Under the pieces are notes generated by a model. That model saw only the letters and a program-made list of their open reading frames with translations, was not told where the DNA came from and did not search any database. From NCBI GenBank assembly GCA_036279295.1, contig DASUJK010000129.1, positions 40,165 through 64,164 of the forward strand: DNA of 24,000 nt. Reading direction: 5' to 3'. Each line of letters opens with the position of its first letter. Positions within the stretch are counted from its first letter, which is position 1. Below are positions 5,978 through 23,276 of the stretch, in pieces. This DNA is from Pseudonocardiaceae bacterium (GTDB taxonomy: Bacteria > Actinomycetota > Actinomycetes > Mycobacteriales > Pseudonocardiaceae). A program made the translations under genes and the position numbers.

Positions 5978-6742
5978 GTGGGCTTGGTCCTGCCCGGTGC
6001 CCTGACATGGGTGCTGGACATCGTGGGCATCGATTGGCCGAACATCGACGAGGACCAGTTGCGCCAGGCCGCTGACGAGCTTCGCCAGCTGGCCGACGAG
6101 CTGACCGGCAACACCGGCGACGCGAAGTCCGACATCGAGCAGATGTTGCAGAACAACACGGCGGATTCGCTGGAGCTGTTCGAAGCGCTGTGGAACAAGC
6201 TGGCCGGTTCGCATCTGCCGCAGCTCGCCGACGGCATGAAGGTGGTCGGCGCCGGCCTGGACATCGCCGCCGTCGTCGTGGTCGGCATGAAGGCCGCCGC
6301 CATCGCGCAACTGGCGATCCTGGCCGCGGAGATCATCTCCGACCAGGCCGAGGCCGCGTTCACGTTCGGTGCGTCCGAGGCGTTGATCCCGGTCCAGACC
6401 ATGGCCACCCGGGAGATCATGAAGGAAGTGATCGACCAGGCGGTCAAACAGGTTGAGCAGCAGCTGCTCTCCGCCGTCGAGGGACCGATCTTCGAGGCGC
6501 TGACCAGTGCCGGCGAGGAGCTGGCCGGCCAGCTCGTCGGTGACGCGCTGGGTACCAGCAGCGGCATCGACCTGGGCAAGGTGGCGTCGGCCGGTGGTTC
6601 CGGCTTCGAGCAGGGCGTGCAGAGCGTCACGTCCGACCCGCTGGGCGCGGTCGGCCTGACGAGCGGCTCGTCGGATGAATCGTCGGACGAGGGGTTCCAG
6701 TCCAAGACCGGCGTCCTGGTGCCCGACGAGCAGGAAGTCTGA
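5978..6742 (+). CDS. WXG100-like / CpnT-N-terminal-like helper protein with a central hydrophobic segment
   Basis: N-terminus IVGIDWPNIDEDQLRQAADELRQLADEL resembles, from memory, the W-P-x-x-D/E + coiled-coil motif of the N-terminal domain of mycobacterial CpnT-type proteins. Hydrophobic stretch GLDIAAVVVVGMKAAAIAQLAILAAEII. Acidic Ser-rich tail. Starts 6 nt after the previous gene. Confidence 0.55.
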   Translation: MGLVLPGALTWVLDIVGIDWPNIDEDQLRQAADELRQLADELTGNTGDAKSDIEQMLQNNTADSLELFEALWNKLAGSHLPQLADGMKVVGAGLDIAAVVVVGMKAAAIAQLAILAAEIISDQAEAAFTFGASEALIPVQTMATREIMKEVIDQAVKQVEQQLLSAVEGPIFEALTSAGEELAGQLVGDALGTSSGIDLGKVASAGGSGFEQGVQSVTSDPLGAVGLTSGSSDESSDEGFQSKTGVLVPDEQEV

Positions 6743-6746
6743 GGCC

Positions 6747-8060
6747 ATGAGCGGCGGGGGCTTCAACATCAACCCGGACGAACTGCACCACGGTGCCGCG
6801 CAGCTGGGCACGTTCAGCGACAGCATCACCAAGACGCTCGGCAAGCTGAAGACCACCCACCAGAACCTGTCCGCGCACGCCAGCAGTGACAAGTCCGGTG
6901 TCGGGCAGGTGGTCGTCAAGGCGGCCACCAAGTCCGAAGAGGTGATGGGGAACGTCGCCGGCGAGGGCGCCAGGGTGGTGAAGGGCGCCGAGCAGCGACT
7001 GCACGCCGGGGCGACGGCGCACTCGACCAACGAGGAGACGCGCACCAAGGCGTTCCAGGACCTCAAGCCGGGCGAGAGCGGCAAGAAGACCACGCCGTCG
7101 TCCTCCGGTGGCGGTGGCCCGTCGAAGGGCGGCGGGCCCGGTGGTTCCGGGCCGGGCAAGGGTCCTGGCAAAGGTGGCGGCGGTCCCGGCAAGGGGCCGG
7201 GCAAGGGCGGCGGCGGTGGCAAGCCGCCGAAGAAGCCCAAGGCCAGCAACGAACCGCCGGAACCCGCGCTGACCCCGGGCAAGAAGCCGCCGACCGCCAA
7301 CGACACCCCGTCCAAGGTGTTCAACAACCAGCCGAAGCTGCCCAAGCCGGAGAAGTACAAGGACGACCTGCCCAAGGTCGACTCGGCCGGCGCCGTGCCA
7401 CCGAAACCGGCCCGGGGCGCCCAGGTCGAGCAGATCGACGAGAAGCGGGTGAAGCGCGGCGGCGACGGCCTGATCAAGACGGTGGACGGCAAGCCGGTCA
7501 AGCAGTACGTCGGCGAGCTGTCCAGCGGTCGGGCGCAGGCACTCAGCGCCAACGGCCCGGACGAGAAGCCGCTGGAGTCGCGCTGCTCGGCGGTGGCCAT
7601 CGACCTGAAGACCGGCCTGGTCACCACCGGCGTCAACGGCAACGGCGGCGACGTGATCCCGCCGAAGAACCTGCACCCGCTGTTGCAGCAGAACTACCAG
7701 GACCTGCGGGCCTGGCAGCACCCCGTGCAGGGCACCACGCAGACGCTGGACGGCAAGGCGCACTACTCCACACCGGCCGGCCACGCCGAGGTCAAGGCCA
7801 CCAACGAGCTGCTGTGGGCGCGGGAGGCCCAGCTCAAGCCGGGGGAGACCCTGCCGCCGTCCACGCTGGGCGAGCTGCGGTTCGATCCGAGGTGGACGGC
7901 GCAGACCGGCGCCGACGGCGCGATCGGCGGCGCGGCGCCCGCGTGTGCCAACTGCAACTCGCTGCTGGACGGCGTGCCCAGCTACACCGGCCGCTGTACG
8001 TACACTCCGCGCGACGACCGGTATGCGAATCCATCCGTTGCCCCGTATGAGGATCAATGA
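6747..8060 (+). CDS. Polymorphic toxin: helical WXG100-like N-terminal domain + G/P/K-rich linker + C-terminal YwqJ-like nucleic-acid deaminase domain
   Basis: ATG at 6747, 4 nt after the upstream stop. The track's 6675 start overlaps the previous gene and reads as Arg/Ser junk. N-terminus FNINPDELHHGAAQLGTFSDSI... is an ~100-aa helical hairpin. The deaminase zinc/catalytic motif HAE is at 7782-7790 and PACANC (PxCxxC) at 7938-7955. Confidence 0.75.
   Translation: MSGGGFNINPDELHHGAAQLGTFSDSITKTLGKLKTTHQNLSAHASSDKSGVGQVVVKAATKSEEVMGNVAGEGARVVKGAEQRLHAGATAHSTNEETRTKAFQDLKPGESGKKTTPSSSGGGGPSKGGGPGGSGPGKGPGKGGGGPGKGPGKGGGGGKPPKKPKASNEPPEPALTPGKKPPTANDTPSKVFNNQPKLPKPEKYKDDLPKVDSAGAVPPKPARGAQVEQIDEKRVKRGGDGLIKTVDGKPVKQYVGELSSGRAQALSANGPDEKPLESRCSAVAIDLKTGLVTTGVNGNGGDVIPPKNLHPLLQQNYQDLRAWQHPVQGTTQTLDGKAHYSTPAGHAEVKATNELLWAREAQLKPGETLPPSTLGELRFDPRWTAQTGADGAIGGAAPACANCNSLLDGVPSYTGRCTYTPRDDRYANPSVAPYEDQ
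7149..7214 (+). repeat. Tandem 33-nt (11-aa GPGKGPGKGGG) duplication inside the toxin linker
   Basis: Copy 1 at 7149-7181 and copy 2 at 7182-7214 encode identical peptides. They differ at 6 third-codon (synonymous) positions. Both are embedded in a wider Gly/Pro/Lys low-complexity region, 7107-7241. Confidence 0.8.
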
Positions 8061-8434
8061 ACGAGTTGCGCGTCGACATCGAGGACACCACCCTGAGCGA
8101 GGGACAGGAGGTCCTGTACCAGGGCGTGCCGCTGACCGGTGAAGTGATCCGCACCACCGCAGGCGGCGTCGTGGTCACGGCCAAGCAGTACCGCGACGGC
8201 CTGGAGGAGGGCACGCAGCGGGAGTGGTACGGCGACGGCACCCGCCAGTCCGAGTACACGGTCGTGGACACGAACGTGACCGGCGAGACGCTGGACTGGC
8301 ACCGCAACGGCCAACTGGCCCGTCGGCAGGAGTTCGACGAGTACGGTGAGCTGCGCAAACGCGAGGTGTGGGACGAGGACGGCGTGCCGCAGCCGGACGA
8401 GGCCGTGGACGACCGGGCTGACGACGCCGAGTAA
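8057..8434 (+). CDS. Putative immunity protein, MORN-variant/YwqK-like repeats with acidic tail
   Basis: The ATG overlaps the toxin stop (ATGA at 8057-8060). Repeated G-x-x-x-x-W/Y-x-x-x-G motifs ([51 protein letters not shown]) match the MORN-variant repeats of YwqK-family antitoxins. 125 aa. Confidence 0.7.
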
Positions 8435-8565: not shown

Positions 8566-10938
8566 GTGATCCGATCACTGGGCGCCGCCGTCGGGAGACG
8601 GGTGGCGCCAGGGGTGTCGGGAGCGTGGGTGAGCCAGGACGTCGAATCTGCGGCCGCTGCCGGAGCTGAGCAGTTGGCCGCCGCGCGGCCGCCGTCGGCC
8701 ACCCGCAGGGTGCGCGCCCGGTTGGCGAGGCGCATCACGGCCCAGCGGCCGTCCTCGGTCAAGCAGGTGCTCGAACCGCTCGCCGCCGTCCACCGTGACC
8801 TGCACCCCAACGCCGATCTCGGCCTGTTGCAGCGTGCCTACGACGTGGCCGAGGAGAAGCACCGCGAGCAGCGGCGCAAGTCGGGCGATCCGTACATCAC
8901 ACACCCGCTCGCCGTCGCGACCATCCTGGCCGAACTGGGCATGGACACCACGACCCTGGTCGCCGCCCTGCTGCATGACACCGTCGAGGACACCGACTAC
9001 TCACTGGAGCGCCTGCGGGCCGACTTCGGCGAGGTCGTCGAGCACCTGGTGGACGGCGTCACCAAGCTGGACAAGGTCAAACTCGGCTCGGCGGCCGAGG
9101 CCGAGACCATCCGCAAGATGGTCATCGCGATGGCCCGTGACCCGCGCGTACTGGTCATCAAGCTGGCCGACCGGCTGCACAACATGCGCACGATGCGGTT
9201 CCTGCCGCCGGAGAAGCAGGCCCGCAAGGCCCGCGAGACACTGGAAGTACTGGCCCCGCTGGCACACCGGCTCGGCATGGCGACGGTGAAGTGGGAACTG
9301 GAGGATCTCGCGTTCGCGATCCTGCAACCCAAGAAGTACGACGAGATCGTCCGGCTGGTGGCCAACCGGGCGCCGTCGCGGGACACCTACCTGCGCACGG
9401 TCAAGGAGGAACTGGCCGGACACCTCGCCGAGGCCAGGCTGGAGGCCGAGGTCCAGGGCAGGCCCAAGCACTACTACTCGATCCACCAGAAGATGATCGT
9501 CCGCGGCCGGGACTTCGACGACATCCACGACCTCGTCGGCGTGCGGATCATGGTGGACGACGTCCGCGACTGCTACGCCGCAATGGGCGTCGTGCACGCG
9601 ATCTGGCAGCCGATGCCCGGCCGGTTCAAGGACTACATCGCGCAGCCCCGGTTCGGCGTCTACAAGTCCTTGCACACCACCGTGATCGGGCCGGACGGCA
9701 AGCCGCTCGAAGTGCAGATCCGGACCAGGGACATGCACCACACGGCCGAGTACGGCATCGCGGCGCACTGGCGGTACAAGGAAACCAAGGGTTCGCACAA
9801 CGGCAAGTCCGTCGAGATCGACGAGATGGCCTGGATGCGGCAACTCCTGGACTGGCAGCGGGAAGCGGCCGACCCGGGCGAGTTCCTCGAATCGCTGCGC
9901 TACGACCTGGCCACCCGCGAGATCTTCGTGTTCACGCCCAAGGGCGACGTGGAGACGCTGCCGGCCGGCTCGACACCGGTGGACTTCGCGTACTCGGTGC
10001 ACACCGAGATCGGCCACAAGTGCATCGGCGCCCGGGTCAACGGCAGGCTCGTCGCGCTGGAACGCAAGCTGGAGAACGGTGAAGTAGTCGAGATCTTCAC
10101 CTCGAAGGCCGACGGCGCCGGGCCGAGCCGCGACTGGCTGTCGTTCGTCGCGTCACCGCGTGCCAAGACGAAGATCAAGCAGTGGTTCGCGAAGGAGCGC
10201 CGCGAGGAGGCCATCGAGGCCGGCAAGGACACCATCAGCAAGGAGGTCCGCAGGGTCGGACTGCCCCTGCAACGGCTGGTGTCCGCCGATTCGATGTCCG
10301 CGCTGTCCCGGGAACTGCGCTACCCGGACGTGACAGCGCTGTACGCGGCCATCGGCGAAGGCCAACTGTCCGGCCGGCACGTCGTGCAGCGTCTCGTCGC
10401 CCTGCTCGGTGGCGTCGAGCACGCCGAGGACGAGCTGGCCGAGCGCTCCACACCGTCCACAGTGACCAGACGCCGCGGTTCCGGCGACGCCGGCGTGGTG
10501 GTGGTCGGCGCGTCGGACGTGTGGGTCAAACTGGCGCGCTGCTGCACCCCGGTACCCGGCGACGAGATCCTCGGCTTCGTCACCCGTGGCGGCGGGGTCA
10601 GCGTGCACCGCAAGGACTGCACCAACGCCGGCGACCTGTACGACTCGCCGGAACGGCTGGTCGAGGTGTCCTGGGCCCCGTCGGCGTCGTCGGTGTTCCT
10701 GGTCGCCATCCAGGTCGAGGCGCTGGACCGGCACCGCCTGCTGTCCGACGTGACCAAGGTGCTTGCCGATGAGAAGGTCAACATCCTGTCCGCGTCGGTG
10801 GCCACGTCCCGGGACCGGGTCGCGGTCAGCCGCTTCTCCTTCGAAATGGGCGACCCGACGCACCTGGGCCACGTGCTCAAGGCCGTGCGCAGCGTGGAAG
10901 GCGTCTACGACGTGTACCGGATGACGTCAGCCAACTAG
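8566..10938 (+). CDS. relA: Bifunctional (p)ppGpp synthetase/hydrolase RelA/SpoT (Rel)
   Basis: Near-colinear with mycobacterial Rel as I recall it. HD domain ([13 protein letters not shown]...LLHDTVEDT), synthetase domain ([12 protein letters not shown]...DLVGVRIM), TGS ([10 protein letters not shown]), CCTPVPGD zinc-finger region and C-terminal ACT. The exact start is uncertain (GTG 8566 or a later GTG). Confidence 0.95.
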
Positions 10939-11274
10939 CTTCAGGATTTCGTCCAGCGCGGCCTGACCATCGGGTGCTCGTTTCGGCAGCCGGTCAACGA
11001 GATCGGCCAGGTGGACCCCGTCGACCTCGCTGACGATCGAGGCGATCTCCGCGAACGTAGTCCGTGGCCTGGCGCCGAGCTGTACGTAGGAGCTGATGTC
11101 GCCGCCCATCTGGTACGTGACAACAGCGGCGGCGAGAAAATGTGCCCATATCTGCCCTATGTCGCCAGCCGCTCCCCGCAAATGGTTGGCCAGGTTGTGA
11201 TGGCTGAGGGCTACCTGCTGCGGATCGAACGCCACGTACGCCAGCCGCAGCGCGTCTGCCTCCAGGAAAAAGCT
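10927..11274 (-). pseudogene. Out-of-frame C-terminal continuation of the CHAT-STAND-TPR protein (open frame downstream of the A5/T5 frameshift site)
   Basis: The minus-strand frame opens after a TAG at 11275-11277. It reads SFFLEADALRLAYVAFDPQQVALSHHNLANHLRG..., a TPR-like, protein-like sequence. The annotated frame of the large ORF instead ends in Arg/Trp-rich SWRQTRCGWRTWRSIRSR*. Confidence 0.6.
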
Positions 11275-14200
11275 CTATCCTGATGCGACAGCGTGCGCTC
11301 AATGTTGGCCTGTGCGGACAAGGTCTTGCTGAGTAGGTCGATTTTGTTGTTCTGTTCGAAAACGGATCGACACCATCGCAGCAGCTCAATGGCCTCGTCC
11401 ATTCGATCCAGGCGGCACAGTGCTTCGCAGTCGTTGAAGAGAGTTGTCGCCTGTTCGACCGCGGAAGCGCCGCGGGCGCGTTGGGACGCGTTGTGTTCCG
11501 CGTTGATCTCCAGGGCCAGCTCCCATAGGCCCAGTTCTCCAGCGGAAATGGAACCGAGATTGAGGATGGGCTCGCGACTAATCCACGCGGAACCAGTTTC
11601 GTCTACGCCTTGGATATCCAGCAGTGTCGCCATCGCGATGCGGTGCTGTTCGACCGAATCCAGCACTTCTTGATGACGGCCTTGGTGCCAGAGGATCTGA
11701 AGACGTTGAGCATCGTCCCCGATCCGGGTCCACGGCCCGAGGCCAGCCCGGGCGCTGTATTCAATCTTGTCGTCCGCGAGTTGGAGGGCTTCGTCGAGGC
11801 GGCCGGCCCGACGAAGCAGGTTGATCAGGCTGGGTGCGATGATCGAAGCGGCGCGAAAATCACCCTGCGCCACAGCGAGATCCAGTAACTCACGGAATCG
11901 AGTTGTCGCATGGTCCGGGTGCAGTACAGCTAGCGCCTGAGCATGGACGCGTCCGGCCATCAGTGCGTGCTCGGTGCTGATGGTGGCATCCATGGCACTT
12001 GCAAGTAGTGGCAGAAGTGCCGATGCGGTGATTGCCGAGGCGTCATATTGGACTAGCGCGTCGGCAGCGACACTGAATTCCAACCAGCGGTGTTGGTGGA
12101 ACAGATACGGAGCCGATGATCGGGCCGAATGAAGGATCATAGGTCCAAGTTGGTCGGTCTGTTCCCGTTGCAGCGCGGCGTGAAGTACCGCCAGCCATAG
12201 GTCGCCGAGCACGGTGTCCACCGCATTGGCGAACTCGGAACGCGCGCGGTCGCGTACTGTTTCGGCGATGCCTGGATGGACGCGATAGGTACTGGCCGCT
12301 ACCAAGGCCGCGTCGAGCAATGGTGGCATCGACTTGGCCGGATCTGGTGGATCGCCCGGACGTCCTAACCGCTCCCACACCGCAGTCCAGGCGCCCTCGG
12401 CGATCCTGGCGTTGCGGTCGCTCTCCTCCAGGCAGCACAGGAACTGGAAGAACACGGCGGCGTCCGATGGCAAGCCGGCCACCGTGGCTAGGGTCCAGGT
12501 CCGCAGGACAGCCAGGTAGTTCGCATCGGTCGCCTCGGACTCGCCGTCCAGGAACGGTGCCAGCCGGGTGCCTCCGCGCTGCCACGTCTCGTCCGCCTCG
12601 GCCAACCGGGTCGCGAGCCGCTCGGGATCAGCGGCATGGCCGTCGGCCAGCTCGATCAGCTTGGGGTGGCCTTGGACCACGGTGATCGTGCGCCTGGCCA
12701 GTTCAGGGTCGCTGTCGATGAGCGCCCTGAGGTGCGGCAACTCCCGAGCGAGCAACACAGCTTCCCGCAGCGACAGAGCGTGCACCGGCTCGACCAGCAC
12801 CGAATCGGGCAGTCCAACCGGCCGACGACGCGAGGTCAGCACCAGCCGGGACAGGCCATGATGCGCCGTCATCGCGTCGATCAGCAGCGCCCACCGCTCG
12901 TCCCGCCACTCGCCGCCGTCCGTGAGCAGCGACTCGACGTTGTCCAGGACGACCAGTACTCGCTCCTGCTCCAACACCTCGGTGAACGACGGCAGCCACG
13001 CCCGCCACGCGTCGATGTCGCCGACGAGGTGCGCGAGCTTGAGCCCCGGCAGTTGCCGCTCCAACGCGAACGCGAAGTCCGACAGGGCCGTCGTGATGTC
13101 GTGGCCTTCAGGCGGTGCCGCATGCCAGGCCATCGCCGGGAACGACTCCTGGTGCGTGTACGCCAGTTCCAGCGCACACGCGGTCTTGCCGGCTCCCGCC
13201 ATGCCGTGCAACAGGATGCCGCTGCGGCCGCTGTGCGGGGCCAACGCTGTGGTCGCCCGCGTCATCGGCTCGACCCGGCCGACGAATCGCTCCGGCTGCG
13301 CGGGAAAGTCGGCCAGCTTCTGCCGTTCCGCGTCGAACACCAGCGGCGCACCCGGCGGTGGCACCAGTTTCAGGTCGCCCGCACGCGGCCCGAACAACGT
13401 TGGCGTCGCCACGGACATCGCAGGTGCGGCAGCCGTCGGCGGCTGCACGGCGGCCTGGGGCAACGACAACGCCAAGGCACGCGCGACCGACTGCCCTTTG
13501 CCCAGTACCAAGCCGTAGAACGATTCCGCCAACGCGATTGCGAAGTCGTCGACCACCGGATAGCGCATCGCCAGGACCGCGCAGTCCAATGTGCCGGCCA
13601 CCTCGGTCGCGATGGCAGGCAGTGCTCCGCTGTCAGCGTCGGTGTCGACATCGCGCACGGCCGGTGCCAGCCCGAGCAGGTGCAGCTGCTCACCGGCCGC
13701 CACCGCCGCCGACTCGCACGCGGACAACGTGACCAGCTTGATCTGGTCGGCAGCCAGGTCGAGCAGATCAACGAGATCGGTGCTGCTGATCAGGTCCAGC
13801 CGGCCAGTGTCGTCCTCCAGCACCAGCCCTGCCGGCAGGCCGTGGCCGGACAGGTGCACCACGTCCCAGCCGGCGTCCTCCAACAACGCTTCACGCAGCC
13901 GTTCCCTGGTCGCGCCGTACTGGAGCACGCGCAGCTCGATGGGCTTGTTGTTGACAGCGGCGATCTCGTGGACGAGCCGGGCCAGCGCGAACCGCTCCTT
14001 GCGCAGGTTCAGCGCTCCCGCGTCCTCGGGCAGGCTGAACACGGCCAGCATCCGCAGCCGTTCGCCGACATCGGACTTGGCGAGCGGGCGGTGTGGCTGC
14101 TGGTCGATGATGAAGCCGACGCGGTGCCCGGCCAGCGTGCGCCCGTCCACCCGGGCCAACTCCCACGGCAGACAAGCCAGCACACCGGCTTCGGCGGGCA

Positions 14201-14510
14201 CCTCGATCCGCACCGGCCGCCGATGGCGCGCCAACACCGCCGCCAGGCCGCCGAAGACGCGCTCGGTGATCCACTCGCCGAGCTGGTCGACCAGCTCGGC
14301 CTCGTGGCGCAGCCGCCGGTCGGGTGCCGCGTTGTGCCGCAGATAACCGTGCAGGTCATGGAACGCGGTGTACTGCCATTCCTGGCCGCGCAGGTCGACG
14401 ACGTGGTCACCCAGGAACGTGCCGGCGTCGGTCAGCCGCCATCGCCACTTCGTCGGACCGGCGTGGTCGAGCACCTCAAGGCGCAGTTCCACGTCACTGT
14501 GTCGCGACAT
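11211..14510 (-). CDS. NLR-like STAND protein: N-terminal CHAT (caspase-like) protease + NB-ARC/AAA P-loop NTPase + C-terminal helical/TPR sensor (apparently frameshifted near 3' end)
   Basis: CHAT dyad context VVHLSGHG (13839-13856) and LVTLSACESA (Cys codon 13716-13718). Walker A GMAGAGKT (13182-13205). Walker B VLVVLDNVE (12933-12959). Long alpha-helical repeat C-terminus. Confidence 0.8.
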   Translation of the reverse strand: MSRHSDVELRLEVLDHAGPTKWRWRLTDAGTFLGDHVVDLRGQEWQYTAFHDLHGYLRHNAAPDRRLRHEAELVDQLGEWITERVFGGLAAVLARHRRPVRIEVPAEAGVLACLPWELARVDGRTLAGHRVGFIIDQQPHRPLAKSDVGERLRMLAVFSLPEDAGALNLRKERFALARLVHEIAAVNNKPIELRVLQYGATRERLREALLEDAGWDVVHLSGHGLPAGLVLEDDTGRLDLISSTDLVDLLDLAADQIKLVTLSACESAAVAAGEQLHLLGLAPAVRDVDTDADSGALPAIATEVAGTLDCAVLAMRYPVVDDFAIALAESFYGLVLGKGQSVARALALSLPQAAVQPPTAAAPAMSVATPTLFGPRAGDLKLVPPPGAPLVFDAERQKLADFPAQPERFVGRVEPMTRATTALAPHSGRSGILLHGMAGAGKTACALELAYTHQESFPAMAWHAAPPEGHDITTALSDFAFALERQLPGLKLAHLVGDIDAWRAWLPSFTEVLEQERVLVVLDNVESLLTDGGEWRDERWALLIDAMTAHHGLSRLVLTSRRRPVGLPDSVLVEPVHALSLREAVLLARELPHLRALIDSDPELARRTITVVQGHPKLIELADGHAADPERLATRLAEADETWQRGGTRLAPFLDGESEATDANYLAVLRTWTLATVAGLPSDAAVFFQFLCCLEESDRNARIAEGAWTAVWERLGRPGDPPDPAKSMPPLLDAALVAASTYRVHPGIAETVRDRARSEFANAVDTVLGDLWLAVLHAALQREQTDQLGPMILHSARSSAPYLFHQHRWLEFSVAADALVQYDASAITASALLPLLASAMDATISTEHALMAGRVHAQALAVLHPDHATTRFRELLDLAVAQGDFRAASIIAPSLINLLRRAGRLDEALQLADDKIEYSARAGLGPWTRIGDDAQRLQILWHQGRHQEVLDSVEQHRIAMATLLDIQGVDETGSAWISREPILNLGSISAGELGLWELALEINAEHNASQRARGASAVEQATTLFNDCEALCRLDRMDEAIELLRWCRSVFEQNNKIDLLSKTLSAQANIERTLSHQDRAFSWRQTRCGWRTWRSIRSR

Positions 14511-14511
14511 G

Positions 14512-15804
14512 TCAGCACCGTATTACCGGACCGGTCACCCCGCGATAGGTCACCCCACCGTCCGACGAGAGCTGGACGATCGGGATCGCCCTGTCGAGCG
14601 GGTTGCCCGCCTTGTCGAAGCACAGGTAGCCGCTCGCGCCGTGCACCGGCCGCTCGGGACTGATCGCGGTCAGCACCTCGTCGTGCGACACGATGGCCTG
14701 ATCGTCGTCGAGTGCGGTGGCGGGCTCGGCCGGGAACATGTGGCTGAACCCGTGTGGTGCCTTGGTGAACCACGCCGTGGTGGCCGGGTCGGCCAGTGCC
14801 GGACCGCGCCACATGCCGGGGCTGGCCAGCGCCGTGAAGTACACGGTCATGTTCGCCGACGCCGACCACAGGTCGGGTTGGCCGGCGATCTGTGCCGCGT
14901 CACTGCTGGTCAACACCGTCAACGGCTGGGTCCTGGCACACGATCGGTGGCCCAGTTCCGTGAGAGTGCGGCGCAGATCCGGGCCGGTGCCGGCGAAGTA
15001 GAGGACGTTCACGTGCGCCCGGCACACGCCGTCGCCACCGCCCGCGGCACTGGCCGTCAACACCGTTGCCGCCGCCGGCACGCCGGAGTCGTACTCCGAG
15101 CCCGGGCCGACGATCTGGTAGCGGTTCCGCACTGCGGGCGCATACGCGTCGCCCAACGCGATCGCGTGCGCGTCCGCCGGATTCTCGTCCTGCATCAGCC
15201 ACATCCGTGGCCGAGCGGGCAACCGATCGGGACGGGTGTCCAGGAAGCGGATCGCGGCCGACACCTCGTCCGGATACGTCGGAGTCACTCGGACCAGCCC
15301 ATGGATCCCGGCCAGGTCACCGGTGCCGACCATCGCGATGTGCCGGCCTGCCAAGGCATGGGCCAGGTCGGCATCCCCACTGCCCAGGCCGATCACCGCC
15401 ATCGGGTGCTGTCCGTGGAGCGCGGTCACTGCCGGCTGCCACGCCCGGTCGTCGGCCAGCACGAGGCGGACCAGCGGTGAGCCGGTGGTGCTGTCGGTCG
15501 GATGATTGGCCTCGTACTGCGCCAGATATGCGCCCTCAACGGCATGCCTGGTGTCCGCCGAGCCATTCGGCACCACCAGCACCACGATGGTCACAAAGTG
15601 CTTTCCGGTGCCGGCCACCCATTTGTTCTGTTGGTGGATCAGATTCTCCACCTGCCGTAGGTTCGCGTTGAACACATGTCCGCCGTCGGTCACGTACACC
15701 GGGGCAGGCGGAATCGGTCGTAGTGCGTAGGCAACGCCCCCAGCGGCTGCCAACACGATGACAAAAAGTGGAACGATCAGTCTTCGGCGTCGCCACCAGG
15801 GCAT
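14512..15804 (-). CDS. Membrane-anchored/secreted type-I periplasmic-binding-protein-like (LivK/Peripla_BP_6-like) protein, no cognate ABC permease nearby
   Basis: ATG at 15804 preceded by GGGGGAGG with a 7-nt spacing. N-terminus MPWWRRRRLIVPLFVIVLAAAGGVAYAL (signal/anchor). Body pattern AVEGAYLAQYEAN...LVRLVLADD...AVIGLGSGD...VRVTPTYPDE typical of type-I PBPs. The TGA stop is 1 nt from the ATG of the CHAT-STAND gene. Confidence 0.65.
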   Translation of the reverse strand: MPWWRRRRLIVPLFVIVLAAAGGVAYALRPIPPAPVYVTDGGHVFNANLRQVENLIHQQNKWVAGTGKHFVTIVVLVVPNGSADTRHAVEGAYLAQYEANHPTDSTTGSPLVRLVLADDRAWQPAVTALHGQHPMAVIGLGSGDADLAHALAGRHIAMVGTGDLAGIHGLVRVTPTYPDEVSAAIRFLDTRPDRLPARPRMWLMQDENPADAHAIALGDAYAPAVRNRYQIVGPGSEYDSGVPAAATVLTASAAGGGDGVCRAHVNVLYFAGTGPDLRRTLTELGHRSCARTQPLTVLTSSDAAQIAGQPDLWSASANMTVYFTALASPGMWRGPALADPATTAWFTKAPHGFSHMFPAEPATALDDDQAIVSHDEVLTAISPERPVHGASGYLCFDKAGNPLDRAIPIVQLSSDGGVTYRGVTGPVIRC

Positions 15805-15840
15805 ACGTCGGCCTCCCCCTCGCGCACCGCAACCAGTCCC

Positions 15841-15867
15841 ACGCATTTCGACCCCCGCGAAATGCGT
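15841..15867. promoter_or_regulatory. Perfect 10-bp inverted repeat ACGCATTTCG-N7-CGAAATGCGT upstream of the PBP-like/CHAT-STAND operon
   Basis: Read directly from the sequence. Lies 37-63 nt upstream of the 15804 start and 116 nt downstream of the cyclophilin stop. It could be an operator or the terminator of the upstream gene. Confidence 0.35.
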
Positions 15868-15982
15868 TCATGGACATTTCCTGGACACCGCGACCGGGCA
15901 TTTACCCGGGCGCGGCCGGACTGATTGTGGTGTGCCGAGGCGGCCGAATGCAGCCGCTGTTCGGGTAACGGAGCGGGTGAAC

Positions 15983-21218: not shown

Positions 21219-23276
21219 GTGCGATGGGACGGACAGCGGGTTCAGGGGGACGGGCAGGCGCAGGGCGCCTTGCCCGGGATCAGTGGGCTGGTGCGCAGCG
21301 TGCGTACGCCCGAGTTCAACGGCCTCGTGTTCCACGAGGTGATGGCCCGATCGGTGCTGAACAAGGTGCCGGGCGCGTCGTCCATGCCGTTCGGCTGGAC
21401 GGTGAACCCGTACCGCGGCTGTTCACACGGTTGTACGTATTGCCTGGCCGGGGACACCCCGGTGCTGATGGCCGACGGCCGCACCAAGCCGATCGCCGAT
21501 CTCGTCGTCGGCGACCGGATCTACGGCACGCGGCTGACCGGCCGATATCGCCGCTACGAGGCGACGACGGTGCTGGCGCACTGGGCCACGGACAAGCCCG
21601 CCTATCGGATCAAACTGGTCGACGGCACCGAGTTGGTGACCAGTGCCGACCACCGGTTCCTGACCGAGCGGGGCTGGAAACACGTCACCGGCACCACGAC
21701 CGGTGCGGCCCGGCGCCCCCACCTGACCACCGGCAACAAGCTGATGGGCACCGGTTCGTTCGGTGCGCAACCGGTGGTGGACGCGGACTATCGGCGCGGC
21801 TACCTGTGTGGGCTGGTGCCGGGTGGCGGTGGTGCCGGCTACCGCGACCGGGTGGCCAGGTTCCGGCTGGCCGCCGCACCGGACGGCGTGGCCGATCGGG
21901 CGGCACGGTTCCTCGCCGAATTCGGTGTGGACGCCGAACACGCCGGTGTGGTGCCCGGGTTGCTGGCGTGGCCGAGCGAGCCGAACGACCACTGGCACAA
22001 GGGTTTCCTGGCCGGAGTGTTCGACGCGCGGGGCGGCCGGTCCAGTCGGGTGCTGCGGATTCGCAATGCTGATCCCGAGGTGGTGCGGGCAGTGCTCGTC
22101 GGGTTCACCAGGTTCGGTTTCGCGCACACCGTGGAGGAGGCGGCCAAGGGCGTCGGGCCGCAGGTGGTCCGGCTCAACGGTGGACTGACCGAACACCTGC
22201 GGTTCTTCCATACGGTGGACCCGGCCGACACGAGCAAACGCACCATCGACGGGCTGGCCATCAAGTCGGGCGCGGCGCTGGGTGTGGTGTCGATCGAGGC
22301 ACTGAACAAGACGATGCCGATGTACGACATCACCACCGGCACAGGTGACTTCGTCGCCAATGGTGTGGTGTCGCACAACTGTTTCGCCAGAAATTCGCAT
22401 ACGTACCTGGATCTGGACTCGGGGCACGACTTCGACACCCAGGTCGTGGTGAAGGTCAACGCGGTCGAGGTGCTGACGGCCCAGTTACGGGCCAAGAAGT
22501 GGCAGCGAGAGCACGTCGCGATGGGTACGAACACCGATCCGTACCAACGGGCCGAGGGCCGGTACGAGTTGATGCCGGGCATCATCGGCGCGCTGGCCCG
22601 GTCCGGCACGCCGATGTCGATCCTGACCAAGGGCACGGTGCTGTCCAGGGACATCCAGTTGCTGGCCGCCGCGGCCAAGGACGTGCCGGTCGGGCTGGGC
22701 GTGTCGATCGCGTTGGTCGACCGGGACATCCAGCGTGATCTCGAACCAGGCACGCCCAGCCCGCAGGCCAGGTTGGAACTGGTCCGGCGGGTGCGCGAGG
22801 CAGGGCTGCCGTGTGGCGTGTTCGTGGCACCGGTGTTGCCGATGCTGACCGACTCGGCGGACCGGTTGGACCGGCTGTTCGCCGCGATCGCCGATGCTGG
22901 CGCGACGGGCGTGACGGTGTTGCCGCTGCACCTGAGGCCGGGCGCGCGGGAGTGGTTCGCCGCGTGGTTACGCAGGGAGCATCCGGAATTGGTGGAGTCG
23001 TACCGGCAGATCTACGGGAAGGGGAGTTACGCGGATCGTGGTTACCGGAAGCTGTTGGCAGCCCGGGTCGGTCCACTGTTACGCAGGCACGGCCTGAGCA
23101 CGGGCACCGACCGGTCCACGACGGACACGGCCACCGATGGCGCCGATGGCACTGGGCCGGTGGGCGGCGGCGCGGGGGAGTCGGACCCGGACCGCGCGGT
23201 GTGGCCTGCGGGCAGCCTGCCAGCCGGAGCACCACGGTCAGCCACGGTGGACCAGGGCCAACTCAGCCTTCTGTGA
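21219..23276 (+). CDS. SplB-like (COG1533, Rv2578c-family) radical SAM protein, intein-containing precursor
   Basis: Exteins read RSVRTPEFNGLVFHEV...PYRGCSHGCTY|CFARNSHTYLDLD...GTNTDPYQRAEGRYELMPGII...SILTKG, typical of the Rv2578c-type radical SAM family. 685-aa precursor, about 372 aa after splicing. Confidence 0.9.
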   Translation: MRWDGQRVQGDGQAQGALPGISGLVRSVRTPEFNGLVFHEVMARSVLNKVPGASSMPFGWTVNPYRGCSHGCTYCLAGDTPVLMADGRTKPIADLVVGDRIYGTRLTGRYRRYEATTVLAHWATDKPAYRIKLVDGTELVTSADHRFLTERGWKHVTGTTTGAARRPHLTTGNKLMGTGSFGAQPVVDADYRRGYLCGLVPGGGGAGYRDRVARFRLAAAPDGVADRAARFLAEFGVDAEHAGVVPGLLAWPSEPNDHWHKGFLAGVFDARGGRSSRVLRIRNADPEVVRAVLVGFTRFGFAHTVEEAAKGVGPQVVRLNGGLTEHLRFFHTVDPADTSKRTIDGLAIKSGAALGVVSIEALNKTMPMYDITTGTGDFVANGVVSHNCFARNSHTYLDLDSGHDFDTQVVVKVNAVEVLTAQLRAKKWQREHVAMGTNTDPYQRAEGRYELMPGIIGALARSGTPMSILTKGTVLSRDIQLLAAAAKDVPVGLGVSIALVDRDIQRDLEPGTPSPQARLELVRRVREAGLPCGVFVAPVLPMLTDSADRLDRLFAAIADAGATGVTVLPLHLRPGAREWFAAWLRREHPELVESYRQIYGKGSYADRGYRKLLAARVGPLLRRHGLSTGTDRSTTDTATDGADGTGPVGGGAGESDPDRAVWPAGSLPAGAPRSATVDQGQLSLL
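21441..22379 (+). mobile_element. Class-1 intein (313 aa) with degenerate LAGLIDADG homing-endonuclease insert
   Basis: Block A CLAGDTPVLMADG. Block B ELVTSADHRFLT. Blocks F/G MYDITTGTGDFVANGVVSHN followed by +1 Cys. LAGLIDADG-like motifs GYLCGLVPGGGG (21798-21833) and KGFLAGVFDARGG (21999-22037). Confidence 0.88.

What the first reader, a model, noticed from the sequence alone, without database searches (positions are those of the whole stretch)
14512..15804. Orphan extracytoplasmic solute-binding-protein-like gene translationally coupled to the cytosolic CHAT-STAND gene
The PBP-like gene's TGA (14512-14514) is 1 nt from the NLR-like ATG (14508-14510), which implies co-transcription and probably coupled translation. 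The PBP-like protein has a signal/anchor and a type-I PBP pattern. No ABC permease/ATPase, kinase or chemoreceptor partner is present in the window. I am not aware of a described pairing of an exported ligand-binding protein with an intracellular caspase-like NLR. It could be a decoy or guardee at the cell surface (for example a phage receptor mimic), a substrate of the protease, or a sensing accessory.
Basis: inference. Interest (0 to 1): 0.7.

Follow-up and report, generated by a model that had tools for sequence, protein, structure and literature searches.

The report
Membrane-anchored sensor gene beside caspase-like NLR
A membrane-anchored, outward-facing ligand-binding protein is encoded in one operon with a cytoplasmic caspase-like "NLR" protein; its family is not a transporter part but a cell-surface sensor that actinobacteria repeatedly wire to intracellular death or immunity modules.

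Summary
A 430-aa ORF (14512-15804, minus strand) ends 1 nt before the ATG of a CHAT-STAND ORF. Its predicted structure (pLDDT 89.7) is a type I periplasmic-binding / Venus-flytrap fold behind a single N-terminal membrane helix. No transporter, kinase or chemoreceptor gene was found in the window.

The protein is not a stray ABC solute-binding protein. It belongs to a large actinobacterial family (2,087 cluster representatives). Members are either fused through the membrane helix to cytoplasmic modules, or follow a ~700-aa STAND-like NTPase gene with overlapping stop and start. The fused modules are EACC1-type caspase, TIR-kinase, kinase, HTH and STAND-like NTPase. The NTPase arrangement occurs in 19 of 25 interpretable loci.

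The CHAT-STAND pairing occurs in only four closely related loci. All sit at one syntenic core-genome site, and the ancestral NTPase gene is missing there. The nearest CHAT-STAND relatives stand alone.

Most likely this is a split surface-sensor/caspase-like NLR formed by partner replacement, but coupling is inferred, not shown. Kaur et al. (2020) already noted caspase-TM-PBP fusions, so this is a new variant of a known kind. In this window the CHAT-STAND gene also has a frameshift in a T5 run.

The parts
15805..15982 (-). Intergenic leader/promoter region between the second cyclophilin gene and the PBP-like gene. It includes the Shine-Dalgarno GGGGGAGG (15820-15812).
   Evidence: 79-83% nucleotide identity with L006, L001 and L025, and a partial match in L023. 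The predicted RNA fold has z = -3.67 against shuffles. No Rfam match. No sigma-70 consensus.
14512..15804 (-). Gene for the membrane-anchored PBP-like (Venus-flytrap) sensor protein: 430 aa, stop TGA at 14514-14512.
   Evidence: ORF and translation. Homologues. AF2 model. Foldseek.
15724..15780 (-). Codons for the single N-terminal transmembrane helix (residues 9-27, LIVPLFVIVLAAAGGVAYA). It is preceded by the cytoplasmic tail MPWWRRRR.
   Evidence: Hydropathy 2.38. AF2 helix at residues 3-27. Conserved across the family. The homologous segment is the internal TM linker in fusion proteins.
14515..15699 (-). Extracytoplasmic type I PBP / ANF-receptor-like ectodomain (residues 36-430). Family motifs are VYVTDG (15679-15699) and RHAVEGAYLAQ (15517-15549). 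Conserved cysteines are C261, C289, C395 and C430.
   Evidence: Invariant columns in A1/A2. Foldseek hits to LivJ/LivK/ANF receptors. 32% identity (E 2e-38) to the ectodomain of the EACC1-type caspase P0271.
14490..14510 (-). Start region of the CHAT-STAND gene. The window-specific ATG is at 14510-14508, 1 nt after the PBP stop. The GTG at 14492-14490 is the start conserved in relatives, 19 nt after the stop.
   Evidence: Junction comparison of the window, L001, L006 and L025.
11211..14510 (-). CHAT-STAND ORF as it reads in the window (1099 codons).
- CHAT protease domain: residues 79-347, with the His motif at 13839-13856 and the Cys motif at 13710-13727.
- STAND NTPase: Walker A at 13182-13205, Walker B at 12933-12959, GHP at 12660-12674.
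- C-terminal helical/TPR-like region.
   Evidence: Pfam CHAT at 46.2 bits; AAA_16, AAA_22 and NB-ARC below their cutoffs. Motif positions. More than 1,396 homologues, mostly named 'CHAT domain-containing protein'. No TM-grade hydrophobic segment.
11267..11271 (-). T5 homopolymer (A5 on the plus strand) where the CHAT-STAND reading frame breaks.
   Evidence: tblastn with L006, P0027, P0028 and P0032 switches frame at ~11271-11274. Sequence shown.
10927..11274 (-). Out-of-frame continuation encoding the last ~112 residues of the CHAT-STAND protein. The repaired gene end overlaps the convergent relA stop at 10938.
   Evidence: 54% identity to the C-termini of L006 and P0027. Translation.

Best explanation
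The 14512-15804 gene encodes a single-pass, N-in/C-out membrane protein. Its Venus-flytrap (type I PBP) domain faces the cell exterior and acts as a ligand sensor, not as a transporter subunit.

The family is an actinobacterial sensor module whose default cytoplasmic partner is a ~700-aa STAND-like NTPase. That NTPase is encoded immediately upstream with overlapping stop and start, or is fused in one polypeptide. Other members are fused to caspases, TIR-kinases, kinases or HTH domains.

In the window's lineage the ancestral NTPase gene was lost. A gene from the abundant, normally self-contained CHAT-STAND family came to lie 1-19 nt downstream, and the two now form one operon. I infer that they work as a split receptor, in these steps:
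1. Ligand binding, or loss of it, at the ectodomain changes the state of the anchored protein. This probably happens through dimer rearrangement, as in other single-pass VFT receptors.
2. That change gates nucleotide-dependent oligomerisation of the STAND protein.
3. Oligomerisation activates its caspase-like CHAT protease, which leads to growth arrest or cell death.

Shown: the fold, the anchor, the family-wide wiring to cytoplasmic modules, the operon geometry, and conservation of the pair in four loci.
Inferred: the topology, the physical or functional coupling to the CHAT-STAND, the ligand, and the outcome.
For: Fold and anchor.

Not a transporter SBP. No permease or ATPase gene lies in the window or beside any of the ~25 family loci examined. 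There is no lipobox cysteine.

Family wiring.
- An NTPase gene lies immediately upstream in 19 loci from Streptomyces, Actinomadura, Solihabitans, Embleya, Streptantibioticus and MAGs. Stop and start overlap, for example 7815/7812 in L016 and 7843/7836 in L009.
- Flanking genes differ between these loci, so the pair is the conserved unit.
- Rosetta-stone fusions of the form NTPase-TM-PBP: P0203, P0212, P0217, P0221, P0340, P0355, P0363.
- Other fusions: EACC1-type caspase-TM-PBP (P0271, P0289, P0297 hit NF047832 at 169-234 bits against a cutoff of 140; P0357 hits only Pfam Peptidase_C14), TIR+kinase-TM-PBP (P0350) and kinase-TM-PBP (P0333).
- The window ectodomain is 32% identical (E 2e-38) to the ectodomain of caspase-fused P0271.
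- The partner NTPase has Walker A, Walker B and a GHP motif. Its AF2 model (pLDDT 88.8) best matches a STAND-TPR protein (6mfv), RdrA, RPP1, Avs3 and Cdc6.

Partner replacement.
- The syntenic locus is hisS-MBL-PPIase-PPIase-[NTPase]-PBP-relA in L002 and L004. It is PPIase-PBP-CHAT-STAND-relA in the window, L001, L006 and L025.
- The CHAT-linked clade nests inside NTPase-linked clades.
- The 19-nt gap leaves no room for a separate promoter outside coding sequence.
- Both genes are under purifying selection with similar divergence: dN/dS 0.19-0.34 for the PBP gene and 0.24 for CHAT-STAND.
- The sister clade, which lacks any partner (L022, L023), has lost a C-terminal segment that includes C395 and C430.

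The catalytic and NTPase motifs of the CHAT-STAND are intact.
Against: - The three closest CHAT-STANDs outside this locus have no PBP-like neighbour. The >1,396-member family looks like a self-sufficient single-gene system with its own C-terminal sensor repeats.
- All four paired loci descend from one event at one chromosomal site. Their conservation may be simple vertical inheritance.
- The partner lies downstream, the reverse of the ancestral order.
- It shares nothing specific with the ancestral NTPase beyond the P-loop.
- The cytoplasmic tail of the sensor is only ~8 residues, and it did not change when the partner changed. No interface is evident.
- Two relatives keep the sensor gene with no neighbouring NTPase at all.
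- In the window clade an A-x-A motif (AYA|L) follows the hydrophobic segment, so signal-peptidase cleavage cannot be excluded.
- The window's CHAT-STAND carries a frameshift. It may be decaying here, or the frameshift may be an assembly error.
Confidence: 0.5

Rival explanations
1. Co-transcribed but functionally independent. A self-contained CHAT-STAND (an Avs/NLR-like single-gene sensor-effector with its own TPR sensor) was inserted into the convergent gap between an already orphaned sensor gene and relA. It simply borrows that gene's transcription. The PBP-like protein either signals to something encoded elsewhere or is a decaying relic.
For: - The nearest CHAT-STAND homologues stand alone in variable contexts, one of them next to a ParE/Phd toxin-antitoxin pair.
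- The family is very large, and the same MAG carries paralogues.
- The sister clade shows that the sensor gene can persist at this site with no partner.
- All paired loci share a single origin.
- The partner has no specific similarity to the ancestral NTPase.
Against: - The sensor family is otherwise almost always wired to a cytoplasmic module by fusion or overlap.
- The replacement partner is again a STAND NTPase and carries a caspase-fold protease, the domain class fused to this ectodomain elsewhere.
- The 19-nt spacing is conserved across dS of about 0.5.
- The sensor in the paired clade keeps all family-invariant residues and both cysteine pairs, whereas the unpartnered sister clade has lost a segment.
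Confidence: 0.3
2. The exported protein is a guardee, a decoy (for example a phage-receptor mimic) or a substrate of the CHAT protease. The STAND would monitor its integrity or its export state rather than receive a ligand signal.
For: - Operon linkage.
- STAND/NLR systems in other organisms are known to guard host proteins (general knowledge).
- A precursor that fails to be exported would be accessible to the cytoplasmic TPR region (inference only).
Against: - Nothing specific supports this.
- Fusions place the ectodomain and the cytoplasmic module in one polypeptide across the membrane. That is receptor architecture, not guard and guardee.
- The mature domain and the protease would sit in different compartments.
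- CHAT-STAND relatives lack such a partner.
Confidence: 0.1
3. An ordinary solute-binding protein of an ABC importer (LivJ/LivK-like, as some database names say) whose permease and ATPase genes lie elsewhere in the genome.
For: - The fold matches LivJ/LivK best.
- Two distant homologues carry the names 'ABC transporter substrate-binding protein' and 'branched-chain amino acid ABC transporter substrate-binding protein'.
Against: - The window protein has no Pfam, NCBIfam or PADLOC hit.
- No transporter genes lie next to any family member examined.
- The N-terminus is a TM anchor without a lipobox.
- Family-wide operons and fusions are with signalling and death modules.
- The database names are automatic transfers from fold-level similarity.
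Confidence: 0.05

Closest known systems
EACC1-caspase two-gene membrane-associated conflict system ('System 4' of Kaur, Burroughs, Iyer & Aravind 2020, eLife, PMC7159879); caspase domain model NCBIfam NF047832
   Same: Some EACC1-type caspases carry, after the caspase, a TM helix and an extracellular PBP domain. That ectodomain belongs to the same family as the window protein: 32% identity and E 2e-38 to P0271, and profile E-values of 1e-83 to 1e-101. Both occur in Actinobacteria, and both combine a caspase-fold protease with an outward-facing PBP domain.
   Different: - Here the protease is a CHAT domain inside a STAND NTPase. It does not hit NF047832.
- It is a separate, downstream gene rather than fused.
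- No EACC1 gene is present: 178 nt of non-coding sequence precede the PBP-like gene.
- Kaur et al. treated the PBP as one of many variable 'effector-position' domains and did not describe a free-standing TM-PBP gene family.
TM-PBP + ~700-aa STAND-like NTPase operon or fusion (the window protein's own family context; I found no published description)
   Same: The sensor protein is the same, with the same anchor and motifs. The cytoplasmic partner is a P-loop NTPase with Walker A/B and GHP motifs and a helical C-terminal half. The coupling is tight.
   Different: - The partner lies upstream, with overlapping stop and start, or is fused N-terminally.
- It has no protease or other recognisable effector domain.
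- It is not specifically related to the window's CHAT-STAND.
Bacterial NLR-like/Avs-type STAND proteins with protease effectors (single-gene CHAT-NTPase-TPR proteins of Actinobacteria)
   Same: The downstream gene is a typical member: CHAT with a His/Cys dyad, a STAND NTPase and helical repeats.
   Different: Described members sense cytoplasmic (phage) proteins through their own C-terminal repeats and act alone. Here the gene is operonic with a membrane-anchored extracellular sensor. PADLOC gives only a weak SAVED_CHAT hit and no Avs model.
GlnH-GlnX-PknG pathway of Mycobacterium and Corynebacterium (PMC6069109, PMC9769921)
   Same: An actinobacterial extracytoplasmic binding protein with no transporter role controls a cytoplasmic TPR-containing signalling enzyme encoded in the same operon.
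   Different: - GlnH is a type II (not type I) binding protein and a lipoprotein.
- Its signal passes through a separate four-helix membrane protein, GlnX.
- The output is a Ser/Thr kinase, not a STAND protease.
Single-pass Venus-flytrap receptors such as natriuretic peptide receptor GC-A (ANF_receptor family)
   Same: The ectodomain fold is the same, joined by one TM helix to a cytoplasmic output. These receptors are among the Foldseek hits (1t34, 1dp4, 9dzh), and the fused family members have this layout.
   Different: These are eukaryotic proteins, with the ectodomain N-terminal to the TM helix and a cyclase or kinase-homology output. The window protein has almost no cytoplasmic part of its own.
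LivJ/LivK branched-chain amino-acid binding proteins of ABC importers
   Same: These are the best structural matches (4n0q, 3td9, 4q6b, 4gnr).
   Different: Sequence identity is 15-18%. The window protein has no Pfam hit, no lipoprotein signal, and no transporter genes nearby.

Membership tests
Type I periplasmic-binding-protein / ANF_receptor (Venus-flytrap) fold | Two alpha/beta lobes joined by a hinge; structural match to LivJ/ANF-receptor proteins | tested here: met
   The AF2 model has pLDDT 89.7 and pTM 0.86, with alternating beta-alpha elements. Foldseek against PDB gives 567 hits at E<=1e-3. The top hits are LivJ/LivK SBPs and mGluR, GABA-B, GluA ATD and ANP-receptor ectodomains.
Type I periplasmic-binding-protein / ANF_receptor (Venus-flytrap) fold | Sequence-profile membership (Pfam Peripla_BP_6 PF13458 or ANF_receptor PF01094 at or above the gathering score) | tested here: not met
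   The window protein has no Pfam hit even at E<=1. Family relatives do pass: P0289 scores 41.6 bits and P0292 34.8 bits against a cutoff of 31.7, and P0221 has a precomputed PF01094 hit. The family profile reaches 3td9 at E 1e-4.
Type I periplasmic-binding-protein / ANF_receptor (Venus-flytrap) fold | Binds a small ligand in the inter-lobe cleft | not testable with these tools
ABC-transporter solute-binding protein | Encoded with, or functionally tied to, ABC permease and ATPase genes | tested here: not met
   None is present in the window or beside the ~25 family loci examined.
ABC-transporter solute-binding protein | Gram-positive-type lipoprotein signal (lipobox cysteine) or a cleaved signal peptide | tested here: not met
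   There is no cysteine before residue 261. The hydrophobic segment is homologous to the internal TM linker of fusion proteins. Cleavage at AYA|L cannot be excluded without a signal-peptide predictor.
EACC1-caspase system (Kaur et al. 2020) | A 5' gene encoding the single-TM EACC1 protein | tested here: not met
   Upstream of the pair there are only 178 nt of non-coding sequence and then a cyclophilin gene. No EACC1-specific model was run on the window.
EACC1-caspase system (Kaur et al. 2020) | Caspase domain of the EACC1-associated type (NF047832) | tested here: not met
   The window CHAT-STAND has no such NCBIfam hit. P0271, P0289 and P0297 score 169-234 bits against a cutoff of 140.
EACC1-caspase system (Kaur et al. 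2020) | TM helix plus extracellular PBP domain in the variable position of the same polypeptide | tested here: not met
   The homologous ectodomain is present, but as a separate upstream gene.
STAND (NLR-like) NTPase with CHAT protease (downstream gene) | CHAT domain with catalytic His and Cys | tested here: met
   Pfam PF12770 scores 46.2 bits against a cutoff of 24. HLSGHG is at residues 219-224 and LSACES at 262-267.
STAND (NLR-like) NTPase with CHAT protease (downstream gene) | STAND-type NTPase module (Walker A, Walker B, GxP motif; NB-ARC/NACHT-class profile) | tested here: inconclusive
   The motifs are present (GMAGAGKT, VLVVLDNVE, QGHPK). The AAA_16 (27.1), AAA_22 (24.6) and NB-ARC (19.9) hits are all below their gathering scores. 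Homologues carry precomputed NB-ARC and AAA_16 hits.
STAND (NLR-like) NTPase with CHAT protease (downstream gene) | Intact full-length reading frame | tested here: not met
   There is a frameshift in the T5 run at 11267-11271, and the final ~112 residues are in another frame. A sequencing error cannot be excluded.
Known anti-phage defence systems (PADLOC models, Avs) | Match to a curated defence-system protein model | tested here: not met
   The PBP-like protein has no hit. The CHAT-STAND has only a partial SAVED_CHAT hit (25.9 bits, CHAT part only).

The most novel reading that the evidence does not exclude
Actinobacteria possess receptor-type NLRs. In these, an extracellular Venus-flytrap domain, anchored or fused through one TM helix, controls a cytoplasmic STAND NTPase. 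In the window's lineage the same sensor has been re-wired to a caspase-like CHAT-STAND. An extracellular or cell-wall-derived cue, rather than a cytoplasmic phage protein, would then license protease-mediated cell death or arrest. This would be a prokaryotic counterpart of surface-receptor-to-NLR signalling, possibly used for colony-level programmed cell death.
Probability: 0.35. Interest if true: 0.8.

Novelty: new variant of a known kind. Interest (0 to 1): 0.55.

Why it matters
Bacterial STAND/NLR-like proteins are understood as cytoplasmic sensors of invader proteins. A family in which such NTPases, and caspase-fold proteases, are driven by an outward-facing ligand-binding domain would extend that picture to extracellular cues. 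It would also give a handle on the long-standing question of what triggers caspase-like proteases in multicellular actinomycetes.

In practice the results do three things:
- They re-label a family of more than 2,000 cluster representatives, now annotated as hypothetical or 'ABC transporter substrate-binding' proteins, as sensor ectodomains.
- They define an apparently undescribed two-gene module (STAND-like NTPase + TM-PBP), with fusion proteins as proof of linkage.
- They provide a natural partner-swap case, which this window represents, for testing how the sensor talks to its partner.

Tried and rejected
- Pfam, NCBIfam and PADLOC scans of the PBP-like protein returned nothing.
- The first word-indexed homologue search found only 25 relatives and badly underestimated the family. 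The exhaustive profile search found 2,087.
- The genome scan with the full alignment failed for lack of a conserved stretch and had to be repeated with a narrower alignment.
- The metagenome scan added only two loci.
- My GC3-based gene caller missed several PBP-like genes in favour of antisense ORFs. I replaced it with tblastn-anchored frames.
- I tested whether the ~700-aa NTPase is a relative of the window's STAND module, which would imply descent rather than replacement. HMM and hhalign comparisons show only P-loop similarity, so I rejected that idea.
- A profile search of the NTPase against PDB sequences gave only generic P-loop hits. The AF2 model gave STAND/AAA+ matches with low TM-scores, so 'STAND-like' rests mainly on motifs.
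- The promoter/terminator scan was uninformative.
- Rfam found nothing in the window.
- Plasmid records holding homologues had no annotation in the region.
- One context look-up failed because P0044 is not on record.
- I considered that the upstream intergenic region might be unusually conserved. At 79-83% nucleotide identity it is only modestly so.
- dN/dS values come from NG86 on high-GC genes with partly saturated dS. I use them only to show that both genes are constrained.
Full report
**1. What is at the coordinates**

On the minus strand an ORF runs from ATG 15804 to TGA 14514-14512. After one base, an ATG at 14510-14508 opens a 1099-codon ORF ending at 11211.

The 15804 start is preceded by GGGGGAGG seven bases upstream. 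The N-terminus it encodes (MPWWRRRR, then LIVPLFVIVLAAAGGVAYA) is conserved in homologues. The shorter database start (P0001, 395 aa), which would delete the hydrophobic helix, is therefore unlikely.

The window is a core-genome stretch of a Pseudonocardiaceae MAG. The gene order is ruvB, yajC, secD, secF, apt, a WXG100/YwqJ-deaminase toxin cassette, relA (+), then CHAT-STAND, the PBP-like gene and two cyclophilins (all -), then a metallo-beta-lactamase-fold gene and hisS. No transporter, kinase or chemoreceptor domain was found.

**2. The two proteins**

The upstream protein has no hit in Pfam, NCBIfam or PADLOC.
- An AlphaFold2 model built on 24 homologues is confident (pLDDT 89.7, pTM 0.86). 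It shows one N-terminal helix (residues 3-27) followed by alternating beta-alpha units.
- Foldseek against the PDB returns LivJ/LivK-type binding proteins first (E 1e-14). These are followed by the ectodomains of mGluR, GABA-B, taste, AMPA/kainate and natriuretic-peptide receptors.
- A sequence profile reaches the same fold class only weakly.
- Four cysteines are conserved. C261 and C289 are invariant in all 24 sequences. C395 and C430 are present together, or lost together, in subclades.
- The arginine cluster lies before the helix. Together these features fit an N-in/C-out anchor with an oxidised extracytoplasmic domain. This topology is inferred.

The downstream protein has a CHAT domain above the Pfam threshold. 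It has intact His (HLSGHG) and Cys (LSACES) motifs, Walker A and B, a GHP motif and helical repeats, and no TM-grade hydrophobic segment. It belongs to a family of more than 1,396 actinobacterial proteins, mostly 1,200-1,500 aa.

**3. Two corrections to the observation**

- The ATG 1 nt after the stop exists only in this window. In L001, L006 and L025 that position reads CAGG or GAGG, and the reading frame starts at a GTG 19 nt after the stop. The same GTG is present in the window at 14492-14490. Either way the genes are too close for an independent promoter outside coding sequence.
- Homologues align with the window in one frame down to ~11271 and in another frame from 11274 to 10939. The break is a T5 run at 11267-11271. 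The gene is therefore either frameshifted or mis-assembled. Repaired, it would end at 10927 and overlap the convergent relA stop.

**4. Is the pairing conserved?**

Yes, but narrowly.
- The PBP-like gene is followed by a CHAT-STAND homologue in L001 (84% identity over the 196 residues on the contig), in L006 (70% over the full length) and in L025 (first 30 codons before the contig ends).
- All four loci share the same flanks (PPIase upstream, and relA downstream where visible). Their PBP-like proteins are 69-74% identical.
- The nearest CHAT-STAND homologues elsewhere (63-64% identity: L026 Saccharothrix, the P0030 place, L029) have no PBP-like neighbour and sit in unrelated contexts.

**5. 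What the PBP-like family normally does**

In more distant relatives the gene is immediately preceded by a ~630-760-aa P-loop NTPase gene. This holds for 19 loci:
- L002/L003, L004 and L024 (metagenomic);
- L005 (Solihabitans) and L007 (Actinomadura);
- L008-L014, L016 and L018 (Streptomyces);
- L015 and L019 (MAGs);
- L021;
- L027 (Streptantibioticus cattleyicolor pSCATT) and L028 (Embleya).

The stop and start codons overlap in several of these loci (for example L009, L011, L016 and L024), while L002 and L005 have short gaps. Genes flanking the pair differ from locus to locus (GH2, amino-acid permease, FAD synthetase, Usp), so the pair is the conserved unit.

The NTPase has GPRGSGKT, CLVLLDNVD and TRGHP motifs. 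Its AF2 model (pLDDT 88.8) best matches a STAND-TPR protein (6mfv), RADAR RdrA, the plant NLR RPP1, Avs3 and Cdc6, with low TM-scores. It shows no specific similarity to the window's STAND module.

Fusion proteins exist in which this NTPase, a basic stretch plus TM helix, and the PBP-like domain form one chain. These are P0203, P0212, P0217 and P0221, and P0340, P0355 and P0363.

**6. The wider family**

An exhaustive profile search finds 2,087 cluster representatives (706 at E<=1e-30). Seventeen of the best 150 have an N-terminal extension of about 100 residues or more, and in most of them a TM segment lies at the junction. The extensions are:
- caspase domains that NCBI's model NF047832 names 'caspase, EACC1-associated type' (P0271 Kitasatospora, P0289 Nocardia, P0297 Streptomyces), plus P0357, which hits only Pfam Peptidase_C14;
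- TIR + protein kinase (P0350, Frankia);
- protein kinase (P0333/P0371, Streptomyces);
- weak HTH_31 hits;
- the NTPase described above.

The window ectodomain aligns over residues 36-416 with the ectodomain of caspase-fused P0271 (32% identity, E 2e-38). The family is therefore an extracytoplasmic sensor module for cytoplasmic signalling and death-type domains, not a transporter component.

**7. History of the locus**

A neighbour-joining tree places the CHAT-linked clade as sister to a clade whose two members with readable context (L022, L023) have neither partner. Both clades nest inside NTPase-linked clades.

The syntenic site reads PPIase-NTPase-PBP-relA in L002 and L004, PPIase-PBP-relA in L022 and L023, and PPIase-PBP-CHAT-STAND-relA in the window clade. 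The ancestral partner was therefore lost and a different STAND gene was gained.

The unpartnered clade has lost a ~35-residue C-terminal segment including C395 and C430. The CHAT-linked clade keeps every family-invariant position.

Pairwise dN/dS is 0.19-0.34 for the sensor within the clade and 0.24 for the CHAT-STAND. These are rough values because dS is partly saturated.

**8. Interpretation**

The best reading is a split receptor created by partner replacement. A surface Venus-flytrap sensor controls, directly or through its TM helix and short tail, a cytoplasmic STAND whose output is a caspase-like protease.

The family-level evidence for 'sensor wired to cytoplasmic module' is strong. The specific link to the CHAT-STAND rests on three things: operon geometry, the coincidence that the lost STAND-like partner was replaced by another STAND, and the occurrence of caspase-fold proteases fused to the same ectodomain elsewhere.

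Several points count against it:
- CHAT-STANDs normally work alone.
- The gene order is reversed relative to the ancestral module.
- The tail is only ~8 residues and did not change with the partner.
- All paired loci stem from one event.
- The window copy is frameshifted.

I put the split-receptor model at 0.5, co-transcription without functional coupling at 0.3, guardee/decoy/substrate at 0.1 and an orphan ABC binding protein at 0.05.

**9. Relation to the literature**

- Kaur et al. 2020 (PMC7159879) defined the actinobacterial EACC1-caspase two-gene system. [quoted passage not shown]
- Asplund-Samuelsson et al. 2012 (PMC3501461) listed a metacaspase-ANF_receptor architecture in a cyanobacterium.
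- The GlnH-GlnX-PknG pathway is a functional analogue: a non-transport binding protein controls a cytoplasmic TPR-containing enzyme.
- A 2026 survey of defence STANDs (PMC13581612) does not mention PBP-coupled or CHAT forms.
- Searches found no description of the free-standing TM-PBP family, of its NTPase operon or fusions, or of the CHAT-STAND pairing.

The window system fails the defining tests for EACC1 membership: no EACC1 gene, no NF047832 caspase, and the proteins are not fused. I therefore rate it a new variant of a known kind.

**10. Verdict**

Functional coupling to the CHAT-STAND is plausible but unproven. Interest is moderate to high, mainly because of the family-level finding of receptor-type STAND and caspase architectures.

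Noticed in passing
window 11267-11271 and 10927-11274: The CHAT-STAND gene changes frame in a T5 homopolymer. The last ~112 conserved residues are out of frame, and the repaired gene would overlap the convergent relA stop codon (10938) by 12 nt. This is either a real pseudogenising mutation or a MAG assembly error.
   Followed up: partly
window 15805-15982: The non-coding stretch upstream of the PBP-like gene is 79-83% identical in L001, L006 and L025, and partly in L023. Its predicted fold is unusually stable (z = -3.67). It includes a GC-rich hairpin about 60 nt after the cyclophilin stop. There is no Rfam match. It could be a terminator plus promoter, or a leader element.
   Followed up: partly
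window 14512-15804 (database record P0001): The public annotation starts this protein 35 codons downstream (395 aa). That removes the conserved transmembrane helix and would wrongly make the protein look cytoplasmic.
   Followed up: yes
window 5978-8434: A WXG100-like gene, a YwqJ-like deaminase toxin gene and a small downstream ORF lie between apt and relA. The small ORF's syntenic counterparts in L002 and L004 have a faint MORN hit. Together they look like a polymorphic toxin-immunity cassette, and the arrangement is conserved in L002 and L004.
   Followed up: no
window 21219-23276: A 685-aa radical SAM protein has a sub-threshold intein-splicing hit near its N-terminus, so it may be an intein-containing radical SAM enzyme.
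   Followed up: no
L002 5884-7950: The partner NTPase in this locus has GPRGSGRT instead of GPRGSGKT, a Lys-to-Arg change in Walker A. It may be a catalytically altered member.
   Followed up: no
L004 1411-4205: Two tandem PBP-like paralogues (40% identical, with overlapping stop and start) follow a single NTPase gene. This suggests that the sensor arm has been duplicated.
   Followed up: no
L017 8064-8423 and L019 7854-9325: The PBP-like genes here are truncated or split across frames, so they appear to be decaying copies of the module.
   Followed up: partly
L029 9174-9751: A stand-alone CHAT-STAND paralogue lies next to a ParE/Phd toxin-antitoxin pair, which fits an accessory-genome, defence-island-like setting for the CHAT-STAND family.
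   Followed up: no
P0350 (Frankia sp. R82, 978 aa): This protein has the architecture TIR - Ser/Thr kinase - TM - PBP-like ectodomain. An immune-type TIR domain sits on a surface-receptor kinase that carries the same sensor family.
   Followed up: partly
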